Shown here: one piece after another, positions 1 through 62,845 of the stretch
Layout of the letters: each line of letters opens with the position of its first letter
How positions within the stretch are numbered: position 1 is the stretch's first letter
NCBI GenBank assembly: GCA_000146465.1
Contig: CP001944.1
DNA length: 64,000 nucleotides
Direction: 5' to 3' (one strand)
Program-made: the position numbers and the translations under genes
Notes under the pieces: model-generated
Database searches by the model: none
Seen by the model: only the letters and a program-made list of their open reading frames with translations
Told to the model about the DNA's origin: nothing

Positions 1-555
1 GATCTGAAATCTGCCTTTCTTGGGGAACTACCTGGGGATGAGCCACTTCTGAAGGAGCTGGGAATAGATTTCAACACAATAAGAAAAGAAAGCCGCTTAG
101 TCTTTGGGGTCTTTCAAAAAAAACAAGTTGACTTCTCGTTTGTTAAGAATGCAGATCTTTCAGGTCCGGTTGTCTTTGTAGGATTATATACTCTTGGGCT
201 CATCCTAAACTATAAGATCCATTTTGGATACATATATTTCATTTCTCTGCTGACGGCCTTGTCGATGTACTTCCTGCTAAATGTCCTGGACACAAAGCAC
301 ATAGGATTTCTTGAGTGCTGCAGTATCCTTGGATACTCGTTTCCCCCTGTGGTTTTCTTCTCGTTCCTGAACATCCTGTTGGGAGGAATTGGAATAGGGT
401 TCAAGGTGTTCTACGGCCTTGCATTTGCTCTTTGGTCGAGTTACACAGCATCGGTAGTGTTCTGCAGATATCTTTCCCTTACCAACAAGCATGTGGTTGT
501 TGGATATCCTCTGTTGCTAGGATATACAGGGTTTGTAATGGTTGTTCTATTCTGA
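1..555 (+). CDS. 3' portion of a Yip1-domain family membrane protein (reading frame 1 is open from the window edge; 5' end lies outside the window)
   Basis: Frame 1 has no stop from nt 1 to 555. Translation contains DLSGPVVFVGLYTLGLIL... followed by several hydrophobic segments, typical of the Yip1/Yif1 domain. The ORF-track start at 259 is a TTG, not a true start. Confidence 0.5.
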   Translation, partial: DLKSAFLGELPGDEPLLKELGIDFNTIRKESRLVFGVFQKKQVDFSFVKNADLSGPVVFVGLYTLGLILNYKIHFGYIYFISLLTALSMYFLLNVLDTKHIGFLECCSILGYSFPPVVFFSFLNILLGGIGIGFKVFYGLAFALWSSYTASVVFCRYLSLTNKHVVVGYPLLLGYTGFVMVVLF

Positions 556-669
556 AATAAATCGTATAGTATTAAGGTCTTTGGGGTCTGGACACTGTGA
601 TGCTTATGGACATATTTAATATTTGTAATTGATCTCTGAGATATAAAAGAAAAAACAAGAAAAGCTGGG

Positions 670-1047
670 ATGCGAAAAAATGACTTTGACGTGAGGGAGA
701 TGAACGCAGCATTGGGTCTCCTTAGGCTAGCTAGAGAGGGAAAGGGCGAAGCAGATGAGCCTGATACAAGGACAAGAAAGACCACTTTCCAGATGATGGT
801 TCTTAAAGAGGTATTCAAGATTGCACCGCATCCGTCGACGCTTACGAAGACAGACCTTGCACTTATGATCAAGCTTCCGCTGAAAGCTGTACAGATATGG
901 TTTCAAAACGAGCGAAGCAGGAAAGAGAGAGGAGGGAGGACGGGGAAGAGAAGCAGGGGAGGAAGATCAGAAAACATAGATCCGGTGAAGTTGTTCAAGG
1001 TTATAATGAAGGTTCTGGAAAAGAACAGAGAGGGTTTTGGCTTCTAG
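670..1047 (+). CDS. Homeobox (homeodomain) transcription factor
   Basis: True ATG at 670. Homeodomain RKTTFQMMVLKEVFKIAPHPSTL...LKAVQIWFQNERSRKER with the WFQN recognition-helix signature. N-terminal REMNAALG motif is shared with the neighbouring HD gene. Confidence 0.8.
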   Translation: MRKNDFDVREMNAALGLLRLAREGKGEADEPDTRTRKTTFQMMVLKEVFKIAPHPSTLTKTDLALMIKLPLKAVQIWFQNERSRKERGGRTGKRSRGGRSENIDPVKLFKVIMKVLEKNREGFGF

Positions 1048-1415
1048 TTCTGGAGAGACATTGCATTATATATTGGTGTAACATAGACAGAGCATGTTGG
1101 TCTTTGTGTGAGATGTTTCCAATTGAGAACATAAATTAAAACATGAGTTTTTCCGAGGGGATATTAAATATTAGCCAAGGCTTTATGGCTTTTCTATAGG
1201 ACGGCCCAAGGGAGGAGAGACAAAAAACTGGATATTAATTTTTACCCCTTCCCTATTTGGCCTTTGAACTTGAGTCTGTTTTTTACAACTGGAGAATAGG
1301 GTTATCAAAAAATATTAAGGAACATGCTCGATAATATTAAATTATAAATTTATTCAATAATAATATTGAGCTAGAATTTATTCAAGACTGTAAAAATTCT
1401 AAGACAAGTAAATTA

Positions 1416-1739
1416 TCAATACCTTGGTGTATTCTTAACAATGGACATAATCTCCCACAGGTCAATTGCCTTGGAGTCTGCATTCTCATCAATGCTTTGA
1501 TTCTTTCCTTTGCTGATATGTCTTTTGTTCTGGAACCATATATCCACTGCTCTTGGTGATAAGGATATTAAGATCCCGATATCAATCTTGTTCTCCCATG
1601 TTGGATATGGTGTTGCTTGATATATCTTCTTCAAAACCTCTTTCTGGAACTTGCTTTTCCTGACCTTTTCTCCTGGCTTCTTTAGGCATCTCTCCGGATG
1701 GAACAACAAAATCATTCCTAGGGCTGCCTGAACTTCCAT
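1416..1739 (-). CDS. Homeobox transcription factor, paralog of 670..1047
   Basis: ORF-track start 1757 is GTG. The first ATG is at 1739 (MEVQAALG...). Homeodomain RKSKFQKEVLKKIYQATPYPTWENK...PRAVDIWFQNKRH. It shares the REM..AALG N-terminus and the P[HY]P motif with the upstream gene. Confidence 0.75.
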   Translation of the reverse strand: MEVQAALGMILLFHPERCLKKPGEKVRKSKFQKEVLKKIYQATPYPTWENKIDIGILISLSPRAVDIWFQNKRHISKGKNQSIDENADSKAIDLWEIMSIVKNTPRY

Positions 1740-2089
1740 CTCTCTTCGATCAAGCACCTTGATGGTGAAAATTTTTGGATCTTTTTGTTTTAGAAATCCT
1801 TTCAGATCTCAGCCCCTTTGGGGACTCCAATCACCTTGAGGTACTAATGTCATTGTTCGGCATCATGATAGATAGATAAATAAAGAAGATTAGATTCCTA
1901 TCATGCTTCATTTAGATTTGACTTTTAAATTAAGCGGTTTCCTTGATATGTTTGACGTTTTCTGACTTTATTGGAAGGTAACCTGCAAAATGCCCTTAAT
2001 TTACTATTGATGGAAATCGAATGTTGTTCGCGGGCTTTCCCTGCTGGTTAGGACACTAGTAATTACTTATTTCCGACAGCCATAAGTAC

Positions 2090-2830
2090 CGAGATATGAG
2101 CTCCAAGAGACTCTTGCGAGTGGGTCAACATCGAAAATAAAGAGCTCTGAAGTTTCTGGAGACAAGGAGTATGCTGTCAAGATGATAAGAAAAGAAGACA
2201 TTCCTTTGAAGCTCTTTTTGAGAGAAGTCAAAATGCATAGATTGATGAAACATCCAAATATAGTTGAATTTGTTGACTCGTACGAAGACTAGGATGGATG
2301 TTTTGTTGTAATAAGGTTAGGATGCCAGGAGATGGGGAGCATAATCCAGGCGGGTGTAGGATTGAGCTCTGCCCTGGCCCATTTCTACTTCAAACAATTG
2401 ATTTCTGCAGCGAGGTATCTGCATGGAAAGGAAATATGTCATCGAGATGTCAAACCAGAGAACATGCTTATTGACGCAAGTGGAAACCTCTCGCTATCGG
2501 ATTTCGTCTTTTCAACCTTATTTATACAGAAGGAGAAAGAAGAAGACTTCGGTCGTTTGTAAAAGGTTTAGAGTATATGGCCCGAAGTTTTTGAGAGAGC
2601 TTGCAGATATGTGGTCCTGCGGAATAAGTCTTATTGTGTTTCTAACCGGCTCATATCCATGGGGCAAAGCATCTGGTCGGACAAGAAATTCTCTGGATTT
2701 ATATTGATGAAGGACTACGTCTAGGTACACAAAGGCATAGAAAACTCGGAAAAGAGATTTATAATGAAAATGGTGACTAAAGAAGGCAGCCGCTGGACTG
2801 GGCCGATAGCTCTGAAAGATCCATGACTTA
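2090..2830 (+). pseudogene. Decayed Ser/Thr protein kinase gene (CAMK-group, Chk1-like)
   Basis: Kinase subdomains I-XI are recognisable but split over three frames. Frame 1 gives YELQETLASGSTSKI...EYAVKMIRK...HPNIVEFVDSYED then an in-frame TAG near 2290. Frame 1 continues ...YLHGKEICHRDVKPENMLIDASGNLSLSDFV with DFG changed to DFV. Frame 2 (about 2560-2700) gives DMWSCGISLIVFLTGSYPW, subdomain IX. Frame 3 (about 2751-2826) gives a subdomain XI-like FIMKMV..R.T...L.DP. There is no initiator ATG at the head and the Gly loop is degenerate. Confidence 0.6.
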
Positions 2831-3344
2831 TGCAGCCAAACACACTCCTCGATGAATCGGATCTCTATAAAGGCCCAGACAGTCTGTTTGACTTGATTCC
2901 ACATGGATATATTGGCGCTTCATCTCACCCAGCCCGGAGAAGTGCATAAGACCTCAAAAGTACGCTTTGTCTCTTCACAGCCCAGAAAAATTAAAGGAAG
3001 AGACGCCCATATATTGTACAGAAAAAAGGAAATTCTCTTTCAATTGTACAAGAGATGTGCAAGTCACCCGATGCAATAGTGGTTTCTTGGAAGGTTGTGG
3101 TCTCGTCTGTGATTTTTTCCACGGTTGGCACCAAAAGATAGATTCTTTCCGGAGAAATTGGAGTCAAGAAGTTGAGAGAGAACCACTGTGCAACCATCTG
3201 CAGGACAAGAGGAGATGCTTGAGTTTGAAAAGTTCATAAAAGCCTTTGGGAATTGTTTGGGTTGACTGCAAGAGATATTTGGACGGAATTATAAATGGGA
3301 TTTGATAAATAAACAAAACTAATTATTTTCTCCTGAAAACCTAT

Positions 3345-4517
3345 ATGAAGAACACAAAAAAGAATGAATGGAAAGGACTGAGTTTTGGAGCTTGGCCAAT
3401 TATGCAGGGATATCAGAGAAGATTGTCCCGAAAGATTCAAAACATTTTGTTTATGTCCCTGGTACTTCTTTCCTTTATTTTCCTCTATAAAAAATATTTT
3501 TTTGTTTGCAGAGCCAAGGAGGACCAGAGAATGGAGAAGATGTGCTTAGATTTCATAAACAAGAAGGTTGATAAGTGCTTACAGCACAAGTCGAGGTACG
3601 ACCAGAACAAAGAGTTTGCGGCTATCAAGACACACTTGCCGCTGATTCCACTAAAGATGACACGATCGAATGCGGTTTTTCTGTATACACACAAGAAGCC
3701 TTATGTTGTGATCAAAAGATGCATTGCGCCAGATGCACCGGGGCTTGCCGAGGATGAGATGCTGAAATCTCTGGACCACAAAAATGTTGTAAAGTTCTTC
3801 AAGTCGTTTAGAGAAAAATACGTGAATCTGAAGGAAGAGGAAGAGACGATTATTTGGATATTTATGGAGCACATGGACATCAAGGTGTCTCAGGATGTTG
3901 TGAAGGGGAATGAAAATAAAATAAGAGAGATTACCAAGGGGATTCTGCATGGGCTCCAATATCTTCACAGCATGGGAATAGCACATCTCGACCTGAAGAT
4001 TTCAAATGTTATGGGAAAGGAAACAAAGGATGGGATTGTATATAAGATTATTGACTTTGGATTTGCCCGGAGGCTTGCGAATGTAGGAGACAATGCCGAG
4101 ATCCAAATTCCCTCGAAGAGCTTTGGAACCTATCCATACAAGCCGCCCGAGACGTCGCAACTGAATATGCATGGGATAAAGGGAGACATATGGTGCCTAG
4201 GAGCCATAGTATGGTTTCTATCGTGGAGACAGACACCGTTCTACTTTGATGATGGGAGGAAGAACTTAGAGGAGTGGAGGATGTTTATCCGAGGAAGAAT
4301 TCCTATTTCCTTCAAGCCTAACACATCTCCTGCACTGAGGAACTTTGTAAGGAAATGTATGGATTTCGATAGATTTGCAAGGCCAAGTGCCTCTGAGCTT
4401 CTGGAGCATCCTTTTATAACAGGAGTGCCAATGAAGGTAACCGAGGAGGAGATAAACGAGATGAGTGAAGAGTTTTCATCTAGCTCTGAATACAGTGACA
4501 CAAGATCTGAAGATTAA
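3345..4517 (+). CDS. Ser/Thr protein kinase, atypical (HLD instead of HRD, no canonical Gly loop), with N-terminal hydrophobic anchor
   Basis: True ATG at 3345. Motifs VVIKRC (VAIK-like), YLHSMGIAHLDLKISNV (catalytic loop), IIDFGFARRL (DFG), YKPPE, DIWCLGAI. Residues about 36-50 ILFMSLVLLSFIFLY are a predicted transmembrane or signal-anchor segment. Confidence 0.75.
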   Translation: MKNTKKNEWKGLSFGAWPIMQGYQRRLSRKIQNILFMSLVLLSFIFLYKKYFFVCRAKEDQRMEKMCLDFINKKVDKCLQHKSRYDQNKEFAAIKTHLPLIPLKMTRSNAVFLYTHKKPYVVIKRCIAPDAPGLAEDEMLKSLDHKNVVKFFKSFREKYVNLKEEEETIIWIFMEHMDIKVSQDVVKGNENKIREITKGILHGLQYLHSMGIAHLDLKISNVMGKETKDGIVYKIIDFGFARRLANVGDNAEIQIPSKSFGTYPYKPPETSQLNMHGIKGDIWCLGAIVWFLSWRQTPFYFDDGRKNLEEWRMFIRGRIPISFKPNTSPALRNFVRKCMDFDRFARPSASELLEHPFITGVPMKVTEEEINEMSEEFSSSSEYSDTRSED

Positions 4518-53985: not shown

Positions 53986-54057
53986 TGCTAGATCCCGGGT
54001 TCGAACCGGGGACACCTAGATCTTCAGTCTAGTGCTCTTCCACTGAGCTAATCCAGC
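53986..54057 (-). tRNA. tRNA-Phe (anticodon GAA)
   Basis: Minus-strand sequence GCTGGATTAGCTCAGTGGAAGAGCACTAGACTGAAGATCTAGGTGTCCCCGGTTCGAACCCGGGATCTAGCA folds into a full cloverleaf. It has a 7-bp acceptor stem with one G-U pair, D stem GCTC/GAGC, anticodon stem CTAGA/TCTAG with loop CTGAAGA (U33, GAA, purine-37), and T stem CCCGG/CCGGG with loop TTCGAAC. The discriminator is A. Confidence 0.85.
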
Positions 54058-57143: not shown

Positions 57144-57222
57144 GGTGTTCTGTTTAACAGAATGTGGAAGCCTATTTGTTATGACAATGCTTAAGGCCTA
57201 GGAAGTCGTAAACAAAGCCAAA

Positions 57223-57477
57223 ATGTTTCTGCCTCCTGAAGCAAACACAAGGGAGAGAAGAAGATTTGATCTGGACGACCTCCGGGTTTACTATCTAATA
57301 TGTGAGGAGCTTGGGATAGCTGAGGAGGAGCACATCCAAAAATCTTTCTATTACCTTATGAAATGGGCAGGGCAAGATAAGTTTGATGGAGAGGTGGGGC
57401 TTCTTAGGAATTACATAATGAAGATTAGAAAAGAAAAGCAAAATAAGCCTGGTGAGTGGAGCATGCTAAGGATGTAA
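57223..57477 (+). CDS. Small hypothetical acidic protein (84 aa)
   Basis: ATG at 57223. The ORF fits the intergenic space exactly. No confident family. Confidence 0.35.
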   Translation: MFLPPEANTRERRRFDLDDLRVYYLICEELGIAEEEHIQKSFYYLMKWAGQDKFDGEVGLLRNYIMKIRKEKQNKPGEWSMLRM

Positions 57478-57570
57478 GAGAAGATGCTCCTTATACCCTA
57501 AATAAAAAAATCCAGATGGCTTCAGTCCTCCTTTCGCCAATTTGATTCCCCAATACTATTTTATTTATCA

Positions 57571-62330: not shown

Positions 62331-62845
62331 TCTTCGCTGGGGTATGTCCATAAATTCACGGCCTGCAAGAATTAGACTTGCCACAGAATTTTATATCTTT
62401 AATAATATTAAAACTTTAGGTAAATGCCTTGGTCTTGGTAAGACCATTTTTGCAATTTATCTACTTACATTTGTATTAATAAAAAGGAGAAATTCAGGAA
62501 GAAAACGAAATAAAGCGTAGAAGGCCCATTTAATACCAGGCATTACTTGTATCGGCATAGACATCCATGGGATCCGCTTTTTGAGCACTTGGAATCTTCT
62601 TTTCTGTCCGAATCCGAGCACCTACACTTTTCCATCTCTCCCGATGAGCAGGGGGGACATTTGCATGAGTTATCAACGCATTCACTGTTCTTACAAGTCT
62701 TATTTCCCTTCATAGAGCTTTGTTTTTTTGTCTATAAAAGCTTTCAGATGACCATTGAAACAACTCCAACTCATTTCGATAGCTGTCATTATGAATGGTG
62801 CCATCTGACAAATGATTGTGGTCTTCCACTACACCCAAGCTCAGG

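What the first reader, a model, noticed from the sequence alone, without database searches (positions are those of the whole stretch)
2090..3239. Decaying Chk1-like/CAMK protein kinase pseudogene
Between the homeobox gene and the intact kinase gene, all eleven kinase subdomains are readable but spread over three reading frames. Frame 1 reads YELQETLASGSTSKI...AVKMIRK...HPNIVEF..YED then an in-frame TAG. Frame 1 continues ...YLHGKEICHRDVKPENMLID..GNLSLSDFV, where DFG has mutated to DFV. Frame 2 reads DMWSCGISLIVFLTGSYPW. Frame 3 reads a subdomain XI-like peptide. There is no initiator ATG at the head and the Gly loop is degenerate (ASGSTS). The YLHG.xIxHRD[IV]KPEN[ML]L[IL]D signature most resembles Chk1-type checkpoint kinases. 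A start-less frame-3 ORF (2967..3239) may be the remnant of its regulatory C-terminus. This looks like gene loss caught in progress in a reduced genome.
Basis: seen in the sequence. Interest (0 to 1): 0.65.

Follow-up and report, generated by a model that had tools for sequence, protein, structure and literature searches.

The report
Dead Chk1 checkpoint-kinase gene relic
This stretch of the tiny Encephalitozoon intestinalis genome is the broken, full-length remnant of its Chk1 DNA-damage checkpoint kinase gene. It is a real but fairly ordinary case of gene loss, and public annotations still list two of its fragments as protein-coding genes.

Summary
The window is Encephalitozoon intestinalis. 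Window 2086-3305 (+) is a unitary pseudogene of the Chk1 homologue, the orthologue of E. cuniculi ECU03_0620 (CAD26208.1).

It sits at the syntenic position between the second homeobox gene and the next kinase gene. E. hellem, E. cuniculi, an E. romaleae-like species and an Ordospora-like relative all carry an intact 402-414 aa gene there.

A frameshift-aware alignment covers the whole orthologue and shows these lesions:
- Start codon ATG changed to GTA.
- Four in-frame stops, at 2290, 2722, 2824 and 3139.
- About eight frameshifts.
- DFG changed to DFV.
- 33 of 159 residues that are invariant in intact orthologues are changed.

The same fragments are identical in five assemblies from four isolates, so this is not an assembly error.

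The odd ASGSTS glycine loop is ancestral, because all intact orthologues have it. The frame-3 piece is subdomain VIII, not XI. The frame-3 ORF 2967-3239 is not the C-terminal remnant, which reads in frames 2, 1, 2 and 3.

Decay looks recent, at roughly 0.09 neutral substitutions per site, with only about 2% of the length lost. Loss of Chk1 has a precedent in Enterocytozoon bieneusi. Interest is modest.

The parts
2086..3305 (+). Whole Chk1-homologue pseudogene. It is colinear with the full 412-414 aa orthologues, with only about 2% net loss of length.
   Evidence: Frameshift-aware protein-to-DNA alignment against E. hellem P0001 and E. cuniculi P0002. Homology search E=2e-90. Synteny.
2083..2088 (+). 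In-frame TAA (2083-2085), then GTA (2086-2088) at the position where all orthologues have the ATG start codon.
   Evidence: DNA alignment of the 5' ends of five species; sequence.
2086..2526 (+). Frame-1 segment covering kinase subdomains I-VII: ASGSTS loop, AVKMI lysine, HRDVKPEN and DFV. It contains a TAG stop at 2290-2292.
2506..2508 (+). GTC (Val) replaces the Gly of the DFG magnesium-binding motif.
   Evidence: All six other sequences in the alignment, including the repaired E. romaleae reading, have DFG.
2529..2579 (+). Frame-3 segment holding the activation segment, subdomain VIII (RRRLRSFVKGLEYM). It is flanked by frameshifts at about 2527 and about 2580.
2581..2595 (+). Short frame-1 segment (PEVFE). 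It is followed by a frameshift and a loss of about 4 codons near 2596.
2597..2674 (+). Frame-2 segment holding subdomain IX (ELADMWSCGISLIVFLTGSYPWGKAS).
2677..2901 (+). Frame-1 segment holding subdomains X-XI and the linker. It has stops TAG at 2722-2724 and TGA at 2824-2826. The TGA replaces the invariant Trp of DPW.
2903..3028 (+). Frame-2 segment holding the linker with the conserved TQP and SSQP motifs (LHLTQPGEVHKTSKVRFVSSQP).
3031..3219 (+). Frame-1 segment holding the remnant of the Chk1 KA1-like C-terminal domain, ending in TRGDA. It contains a TAG stop at 3139-3141.
   Evidence: A profile of the orthologue C-termini hits the human Chk1 KA1 domain, 5WI2, at E=1.2e-5.
3221..3293 (+). 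Tail of the pseudogene: EFEKFIKAF in frame 2 (3221-3247), then GIVWVDCKRYLDGII in frame 3 (3249-3293). The first stop in that frame is at 3303.
2332..2562 (+). 76-aa fragment ORF annotated as 'protein kinase domain-containing protein' (UTX44864.1, KAL7346070.1, KAL7348057.1, KAL7350020.1). It covers subdomains V-VII only and carries DFV.
2423..2707 (+). 94-aa frame-2 fragment ORF annotated in 2010 as 'putative Ser/Thr protein kinase' (ADM11197.1 / XP_003072557.1). Only its residues from 2597-2674 are homologous to the kinase.
2967..3239 (+). It is a chance ORF in a frame that carries no homology.
   Evidence: no Pfam match; homology runs in frames 2 and 1 here.
1416..1715 (-). Upstream neighbour, an intact homeobox gene that is the ECU03_0610 orthologue. 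It shares a divergent intergenic region with the pseudogene.
3345..4517 (+). Downstream neighbour, an intact kinase (ADM11198.1). It is not a Chk1 paralogue.

Best explanation
Window 2086-3305 is a non-functional, non-processed (unitary) pseudogene of the single Chk1 checkpoint-kinase homologue of Encephalitozoon. It still lies at its ancestral position in E. intestinalis.

**Shown**
- The gene was inactivated in place by point mutations and small indels. The start codon is lost, there are four nonsense codons and about eight frameshifts, and the catalytic DFG has become DFV.
- No open frame longer than 94 codons remains.
- The same state is found in the sequenced isolates.

**Inferred**
- No kinase can be made from the locus. 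No Rad53/Cds1/Chk2-type kinase was assigned in the related E. cuniculi kinome. E. intestinalis therefore probably has no Chk1-type effector kinase downstream of its Tel1/Mec1-like kinases.
- Inactivation happened on the E. intestinalis branch, and late on it. The neutral period is roughly 0.09 substitutions per site, about a tenth of the branch.
- That short neutral period explains why the relic is still full length in a genome with very short spacers.
For: - **Species and locus.** Neighbouring proteins are exact matches to E. intestinalis ATCC 50506 proteins ADM11195, ADM11198, ADM11201 and ADM11202.
- **Synteny.** The order UCH, Yip1, HD-8, HD, [Chk1-like], kinase, 104-aa gene, S14, UBP, RNase HII is the same in E. 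hellem, E. romaleae, E. cuniculi, an unnamed Encephalitozoon and an Ordospora-like relative. An intact 402-414 aa gene fills the slot everywhere except in E. romaleae SJ-2008, where it is split in two.
- **Orthologue identity.** The E. cuniculi gene is CAD26208.1 / ECU03_0620 / Q8SSA8 'CHK1 homolog'. The kinome study assigns it as the Chk1 orthologue and the only Chk1-related kinase (PMC2078597).
- **Lesion map.** It covers all 412 residues at 57% identity.
- **C-terminal domain.** The profile of orthologue C-termini hits only the human Chk1 KA1 domain, at E=1.2e-5 with the next hit at E=0.7.
- **Relaxed constraint.** 33 of 159 residues invariant in five intact orthologues are changed. The non-synonymous branch length is 0.18-0.20, against 0.08-0.11 for the E. 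hellem group. The neighbouring kinase shows no such excess.
- **Not an artefact.** The window is 100% identical to ATCC 50603 contig JBLUPK010000006.1 over 8 kb, and to an independent read-set assembly over 1-2894. The 76-aa fragment is identical in four assemblies. The 94-aa fragment is identical in the 2010 assembly. The three newer isolates were sequenced at 300-360x.
- **No intact copy.** No intact E. intestinalis homologue appeared in the protein search.
Against: - There are no expression or proteomic data, so the absence of a product is inferred.
- The 3' third (2895-3305) was compared directly with only one other assembly. That assembly is identical and may be the source of the window.
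- The protein search that found no intact paralogue also failed to list the two short annotated fragments. Its negative result is therefore not airtight.
- Synonymous sites are saturated between species (dS above 1.3). The relaxed-constraint signal rests on dN and on changes at invariant sites. The age estimate is rough.
- The gene evolves fast even where it is intact (60% identity between E. hellem and E. cuniculi). The excess divergence of the pseudogene is therefore only moderate.
Confidence: 0.93

Rival explanations
1. The frame breaks are sequencing or assembly errors, and the gene is really intact.
For: E. romaleae SJ-2008 has a one-base frameshift in a short C run in the same gene. That frameshift could be such an error.
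Against: Twelve or more independent lesions are involved, including base substitutions to stop codons and in the start codon. Homopolymer errors cannot make those. The sequence is identical in assemblies made by different technologies from four isolates, plus an independent read-set assembly.
Confidence: 0.01
2. The locus is still a working gene. Its message would be repaired by splicing, RNA editing or programmed frameshifting.
For: None was found here. The upstream intergenic blocks shared with other species are retained, so transcription is not excluded.
Against: Repair would need about eight frame corrections and four stop read-throughs. It would also need a new start codon, and reversal of DFV and of dozens of changes at invariant residues. 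The frame breaks lie inside conserved coding blocks that are colinear with the orthologues. They do not flank removable inserts.
Confidence: 0.01
3. The annotated fragment ORFs (76 aa at 2332-2562, 94 aa at 2423-2707) encode functional small proteins derived from the kinase.
For: Both are annotated as coding sequences in GenBank.
Against: Each lacks most catalytic motifs. The two overlap each other in different frames. Only 26 of the 94 residues are homologous to the kinase. No relative has such a short gene, so nothing shows conservation of the fragments as such.
Confidence: 0.03
4. The relic derives from some other CAMK-like kinase rather than from Chk1.
For: For the kinase domain alone, plant CIPK and MARK structures score about as well as human Chk1.
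Against: The C-terminal domain profile matches only the Chk1 KA1 domain. The GD..EF motif and the TQP and SSQP motifs are retained. Two published kinome analyses place the E. cuniculi orthologue in CAMKL/CHK1.
Confidence: 0.03

Closest known systems
E. cuniculi ECU03_0620 (CAD26208.1, UniProt Q8SSA8, 'probable serine/threonine-protein kinase CHK1 homolog') and its E. hellem orthologue
   Same: It has the same chromosomal slot and neighbours. It is colinear over the whole length at 55-57% conceptual amino-acid identity. It shares the unusual ASGSTS loop, HRD.KPEN, the TQP and SSQP motifs and the C-terminal GD..EF motif.
   Different: The E. intestinalis copy has no start codon, four stops, about eight frameshifts and DFV in place of DFG, so it cannot encode the protein.
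Human and yeast Chk1 (CAMKL/CHK1 subfamily: kinase domain plus KA1-like autoinhibitory domain)
   Same: The kinase domain of the orthologues matches human Chk1 at E of about 1e-39. The C-terminal profile matches the human Chk1 KA1 domain 5WI2.
   Different: The microsporidian proteins are shorter (about 410 aa, against 476 aa recalled for human Chk1). Their glycine-rich loop keeps only one of the three glycines. No function has been tested experimentally in microsporidia.
Loss of Chk1 in Enterocytozoon bieneusi (kinome comparison, PMC4280135)
   Same: Another human-infecting microsporidian lacks Chk1, so the kinase can be dispensable in this phylum.
   Different: That paper reports Chk1 only as lost from the E. 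bieneusi kinome. Here the full-length relic is still readable and the loss can be placed on a single species branch.
Decaying genes in Encephalitozoon, for example the horizontally acquired folate-pathway genes of E. romaleae (recalled from Pombert et al. 2012, not re-read here)
   Same: They are lineage-specific pseudogenes inside otherwise tightly packed, colinear chromosome cores.
   Different: Those are recently acquired accessory genes. This is an ancient core cell-cycle regulator.

Membership tests
Chk1 (CAMKL/CHK1) kinase, ancestral identity of the relic | Eukaryotic protein kinase catalytic domain of CAMK-like type | tested here: met
   Pfam Pkinase E=3.8e-29 on the frame-1 piece. Human Chk1 structures are among the top hits for the orthologue at E of about 1e-39, level with CIPK and MARK.
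Chk1 (CAMKL/CHK1) kinase, ancestral identity of the relic | Chk1-type C-terminal KA1-like regulatory domain with the GD..EF motif | tested here: met
   The profile of eight orthologue C-termini hits only the human Chk1 KA1 domain 5WI2 at E=1.2e-5. The relic keeps ...TRGDA / EFEKFIKAF at 3205-3247.
Chk1 (CAMKL/CHK1) kinase, ancestral identity of the relic | SQ/TQ motifs in the linker, which are the sites of ATR/Mec1-type phosphorylation in characterised Chk1 (established knowledge) | tested here: met
   HFTQP and SSQP are invariant in the eight orthologues and are kept in the relic as LHLTQP and VSSQP. Phosphorylation itself cannot be tested with these tools.
Chk1 (CAMKL/CHK1) kinase, ancestral identity of the relic | Positional orthology with the published microsporidian Chk1 orthologue | tested here: met
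   The flanking genes are the same as for ECU03_0620 (CAD26208.1). PMC2078597 names that protein as the Chk1 orthologue.
Chk1 (CAMKL/CHK1) kinase, ancestral identity of the relic | Canonical GxGxxG glycine-rich loop | tested here: not met
   The relic and every intact orthologue have ASGSTS. This is a family-wide departure, not a lesion. It does not separate the relic from its orthologues.
Functional Chk1 gene in E. intestinalis | One open reading frame with a start codon and intact catalytic motifs | tested here: not met
   ATG changed to GTA, four stops, about eight frameshifts and DFG changed to DFV.
Unitary (non-processed) pseudogene | Homologous to a gene that is functional in relatives and lies at the same genomic position | tested here: met
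Unitary (non-processed) pseudogene | Disabling lesions that are real and not artefacts | tested here: met
   The sequence or fragments are identical in five assemblies from four isolates and in one read-set assembly. The 3' third was checked against one assembly only.
Unitary (non-processed) pseudogene | Relaxed selective constraint | tested here: inconclusive
   The dN branch is about twice that of E. hellem, and 21% of invariant residues are changed. dS is saturated, however, and third codon positions still changed faster than first and second. That pattern fits a short neutral period.
Unitary (non-processed) pseudogene | No functional product | not testable with these tools
   This needs RNA sequencing and proteomics of E. 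intestinalis.

The most novel reading that the evidence does not exclude
E. intestinalis has one of the smallest known nuclear genomes. On this reading it has recently and completely lost the only Chk1/Chk2-type checkpoint effector kinase of its lineage. E. romaleae, with a single frameshift in the same gene, may be starting down the same path. Chk1 would then be turning dispensable repeatedly within Encephalitozoon. That would make these species a natural system for studying how a eukaryote replicates and divides with no DNA-damage effector kinase.
Probability: 0.3. Interest if true: 0.5.

Novelty: new member of a known kind. Interest (0 to 1): 0.3.

Why it matters
**Annotation.** Two GenBank coding sequences, ADM11197.1 and the UTX44864.1/KAL734... 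set, are fragments of one dead gene and should be flagged as a pseudogene.

**Cell-cycle control.** Kinome studies stress that cell-cycle kinases, Chk1 included, are the part of the kinome that microsporidia keep. E. intestinalis breaks that rule. It is therefore a candidate organism with no Chk1-type checkpoint signalling, which bears on drug-target lists and on how mutations arise in these parasites.

**Genome reduction.** A 1.2-kb relic has lost only about 2% of its length. It sits in a genome where spacers are typically tens to a few hundred bases. This suggests that DNA deletion after gene death is slow here.

None of this is surprising in kind. Pseudogenes and Chk1 loss are both already known in microsporidia.

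Tried and rejected
- **Plain tblastn.** With intact orthologues it ran straight through the frame breaks in frame 1 and hid them. I replaced it with a custom frameshift-aware alignment.
- **Per-branch dN/dS.** It was unusable because dS is saturated between species.
- **Supplementary Data 2 of Corradi et al. 2010.** This is the list of E. cuniculi genes absent from E. intestinalis. It is not held, so I could not check whether this locus is listed there.
- **Literature searches.** Searches for the locus tags and for Chk1 plus E. intestinalis found no paper naming this pseudogene.
- **E. cuniculi variant P0002.** It could not be located on a contig. The GB-M1 locus was reached through the homeobox neighbour instead.
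- **Neighbouring kinase as tandem paralogue.** I considered whether it could substitute for Chk1 and rejected the idea. It shares 23% identity, has no KA1 domain, and its best structural relatives are PAK, ASK1 and DAPK.
- **Minus-strand ORF 2518-2904 (128 aa).** I considered it as a replacement gene. It is absent from the protein collection and is not annotated anywhere.
- **Rfam.** It finds no RNA gene in the region.

Full report
**What the window is.** Proteins encoded next to the finding are exact matches to Encephalitozoon intestinalis ATCC 50506 proteins: homeobox HD-8 ADM11195.1, kinase ADM11198.1, isopeptidase T ADM11201.1 and RNase HII ADM11202.1. The first 8 kb of the window are 100% identical to contig JBLUPK010000006.1 of GCA_051312795.1. 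According to the genome announcement, that assembly is isolate ATCC 50603.

**Checking the observation.**
- The frame-1 piece matches Pfam Pkinase at E=3.8e-29.
- A stitched translation finds Encephalitozoon Chk1-like kinases at E=2e-90 and E=4e-89, with 56% identity over 95% of the query. The signal is far above chance.
- Plain tblastn blurred the frame breaks, so I wrote a protein-to-DNA alignment that allows frameshifts.

**Lesion map.** Against E. hellem P0001 (412 aa) and E. cuniculi P0002 (414 aa), the relic is colinear with the whole protein from 2086 to about 3293. Conceptual identity is 57% and 55% respectively. The lesions are:
- GTA instead of ATG at 2086-2088, with TAA just upstream.
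- Stops at 2290 (TAG), 2722 (TAG), 2824 (TGA, replacing the invariant Trp of DPW) and 3139 (TAG).
- Frameshifts near 2527, 2580, 2596 (with about four codons lost), 2675, 2902-2911, 3029-3032, 3220 and 3242-3248.
- DFG changed to DFV at 2506-2508.

The frame order is 1/3/1/2/1/2/1/2/3. The first stop in the last frame is at 3303, so the relic spans 2086-3305.

- The frame-3 piece (2529-2579) is the activation segment, subdomain VIII. Subdomain XI reads in frame 1.
- The ASGSTS loop is identical or nearly so in every intact orthologue, including the Ordospora-like outgroup. It is an ancestral peculiarity of the family, not decay.
- The frame-3 ORF 2967-3239 has no Pfam match and lies in a frame without homology.
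- The real C-terminal remnant reads in frame 2 (2903-3028), frame 1 (3031-3219), frame 2 (3221-3247) and frame 3 (3249-3293).

**What it was.** The gene order is the same in five relatives: E. hellem (L002), E. romaleae (L003), an unnamed Encephalitozoon from SRR23946965 (L006), E. cuniculi GB-M1 (L008) and an Ordospora-like relative (L007). The order is UCH, Yip1, HD-8, HD (minus strand), kinase X, second kinase, 104-aa gene, ribosomal S14, UBP, RNase HII. Kinase X is intact at 402-414 aa from its conserved start.
- In E. cuniculi, kinase X is CAD26208.1 / ECU03_0620 / UniProt Q8SSA8 'CHK1 homolog'.
- The E. cuniculi kinome paper assigns exactly this protein as the Chk1 orthologue and calls it the single Chk1-related kinase. 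It assigns no Rad53/Cds1/Chk2-type kinase in that genome (PMC2078597).
- On the kinase domain alone, human Chk1, plant CIPK and MARK score alike.
- I therefore tested the C-terminus separately. A profile of eight orthologue C-termini hits only the human Chk1 KA1 domain 5WI2 at E=1.2e-5. The next hit is at E=0.7.
- The relic keeps the TQP and SSQP linker motifs and the GD..EF motif.

**Is it an artefact?** It is not. The lesions include substitutions in the start codon and substitutions that create stop codons.
- The 76-aa frame-1 fragment (2332-2562) is identical in the 2023 telomere-to-telomere assembly (UTX44864.1), in the three 2025 isolate assemblies (KAL7346070.1, KAL7348057.1, KAL7350020.1) and in a Logan read-set assembly.
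- The 94-aa frame-2 fragment (2423-2707) spans four of the frameshift sites. It is identical in the 2010 assembly (ADM11197.1).
- The Logan contig from ERR13302946 is 100% identical over window 1-2894.
- The three newer isolates came from New York, Georgia and California and were sequenced at 300-360x.
- Only the last 400 bases rest on a single comparison.

**Constraint and age.**
- The neighbouring kinase is 85-86% identical between E. intestinalis, E. hellem and E. cuniculi, with near-equal branches. E. intestinalis is therefore not generally accelerated.
- The Chk1 homologue evolves fast even when intact (60% identity between E. hellem and E. cuniculi). The relic is 52-56% identical to intact copies.
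- Three-taxon branch lengths give dN of 0.18-0.20 for the relic, 0.08-0.11 for E. hellem or its relative, and 0.15-0.16 for E. cuniculi. dS is saturated above 1.3, so dN/dS per branch is meaningless.
- 33 of 159 residues invariant in five intact orthologues are changed in the relic.
- Lineage-specific changes are still more frequent at third codon positions (42%) than at first (17%) and second (14%). Most of the E. intestinalis branch was therefore spent under selection.
- Taking an omega of about 0.13, the excess dN corresponds to roughly 0.09 neutral substitutions per site, or about 110 substitutions. About four of these would be expected to create stops, and four are seen. This is a back-of-envelope inference, not a fitted model.
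- Net length loss is about 28 of 1,236 nt.

**Context.**
- The relic and its flanks (about 1740-3344) form the longest stretch without a credible ORF in the 64-kb window. Gaps elsewhere are mostly 10-300 nt.
- Rfam finds no RNA gene there.
- Upstream intergenic blocks such as AATTTACTATTGATGGAAA and TTAGTAATTAC are still conserved across five species. They may serve the divergently oriented homeobox gene, so they do not show that the relic is transcribed.
- The downstream kinase is not a Chk1 paralogue. It shares 23% identity, has no KA1 domain, and its best structural relatives are PAK, ASK1 and DAPK.
- No intact E. intestinalis homologue appeared in the protein search. That search also missed the two short fragments, so the negative result is not absolute.

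**Comparison with what is known.**
- Chk1 is present in E. cuniculi, Nosema bombycis and N. ceranae, and is reported lost in Enterocytozoon bieneusi (PMC4280135).
- Corradi et al. 2010 state that 15 genes of known function in E. cuniculi are absent from E. intestinalis, and they mention putative pseudogenes in the chromosome cores. The list is in a supplement that I could not read.
- No searchable paper names this locus.
- Public records annotate two fragments as protein-coding kinases rather than as a pseudogene.

**Verdict.** This is a real, well-supported unitary pseudogene of the Chk1 homologue, fixed in E. intestinalis. In kind it is ordinary: a lineage-specific pseudogene, and a kinase loss with a precedent in the phylum. 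The points of interest are:
- the annotation fix;
- the implication that this species has no Chk1-type effector kinase;
- the possible parallel frameshift in E. romaleae;
- the evidence that dead DNA is removed slowly even in this genome.

Noticed in passing
L003:5001-6315 (E. romaleae SJ-2008, CP003520.1); extra C at L003:5664: The E. romaleae Chk1 homologue is split into two annotated ORFs of 224 and 201 aa, both named 'CHK1-like Ser/Thr protein kinase'. The cause is a single extra C in a CCC run, relative to a close relative that has an intact gene (L006). Downstream of the shift, dN/dS is 0.20, the same as in intact pairs (0.19). The shift is therefore either very recent or a sequencing error.
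   Followed up: partly
window 2113-2130 and the same position in L002, L003, L006, L007 and L008: All microsporidian Chk1 homologues seen here have ASGST[SA] where kinases normally have GxGxxG, so only one of the three glycines is kept. The Lys, Glu, HRD, DFG and APE motifs are otherwise intact. This is an unusual ATP-binding loop for a presumably active kinase.
   Followed up: partly
window 3345-4517 (+): The intact neighbouring kinase is annotated as 'calmodulin-dependent protein kinase'. It has HLD in place of HRD. It matches the Pfam kinase profile only from position 46 onward. It also has a hydrophobic N-terminal stretch. Its best solved relatives are PAK, ASK1 and DAPK rather than CaM kinases, so the annotation looks doubtful.
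   Followed up: partly
window 1930-2085, aligned with L002, L003, L006 and L008: Blocks of the intergenic region between the homeobox gene and the Chk1 slot are invariant across five species, for example AATTTACTATTGATGGAAA and TTAGTAATTAC. They persist upstream of the dead gene. They are possibly promoter elements, perhaps for the divergently oriented homeobox gene.
   Followed up: no
window 1416-1757 (-): The start of the second homeobox gene is annotated differently in different records, giving 99 aa, 107 aa and 113 aa products for the same locus.
   Followed up: no
window 62331-62845 and 57144-57570: After the pseudogene region, these are the next-longest stretches without an ATG-started ORF of at least 90 codons (515 and 427 nt). 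I did not examine them for further relics or small genes.
   Followed up: no
L005 (Logan ERR13302946 contig, 3,738 nt): An unrelated public read set assembles a contig that is 100% identical to E. intestinalis over window 1-2894. The nature of that sample is unknown to me.
   Followed up: no
window 53986-54057 (-): This tRNA is the only Rfam match in the 64-kb window (67 bits).
   Followed up: no
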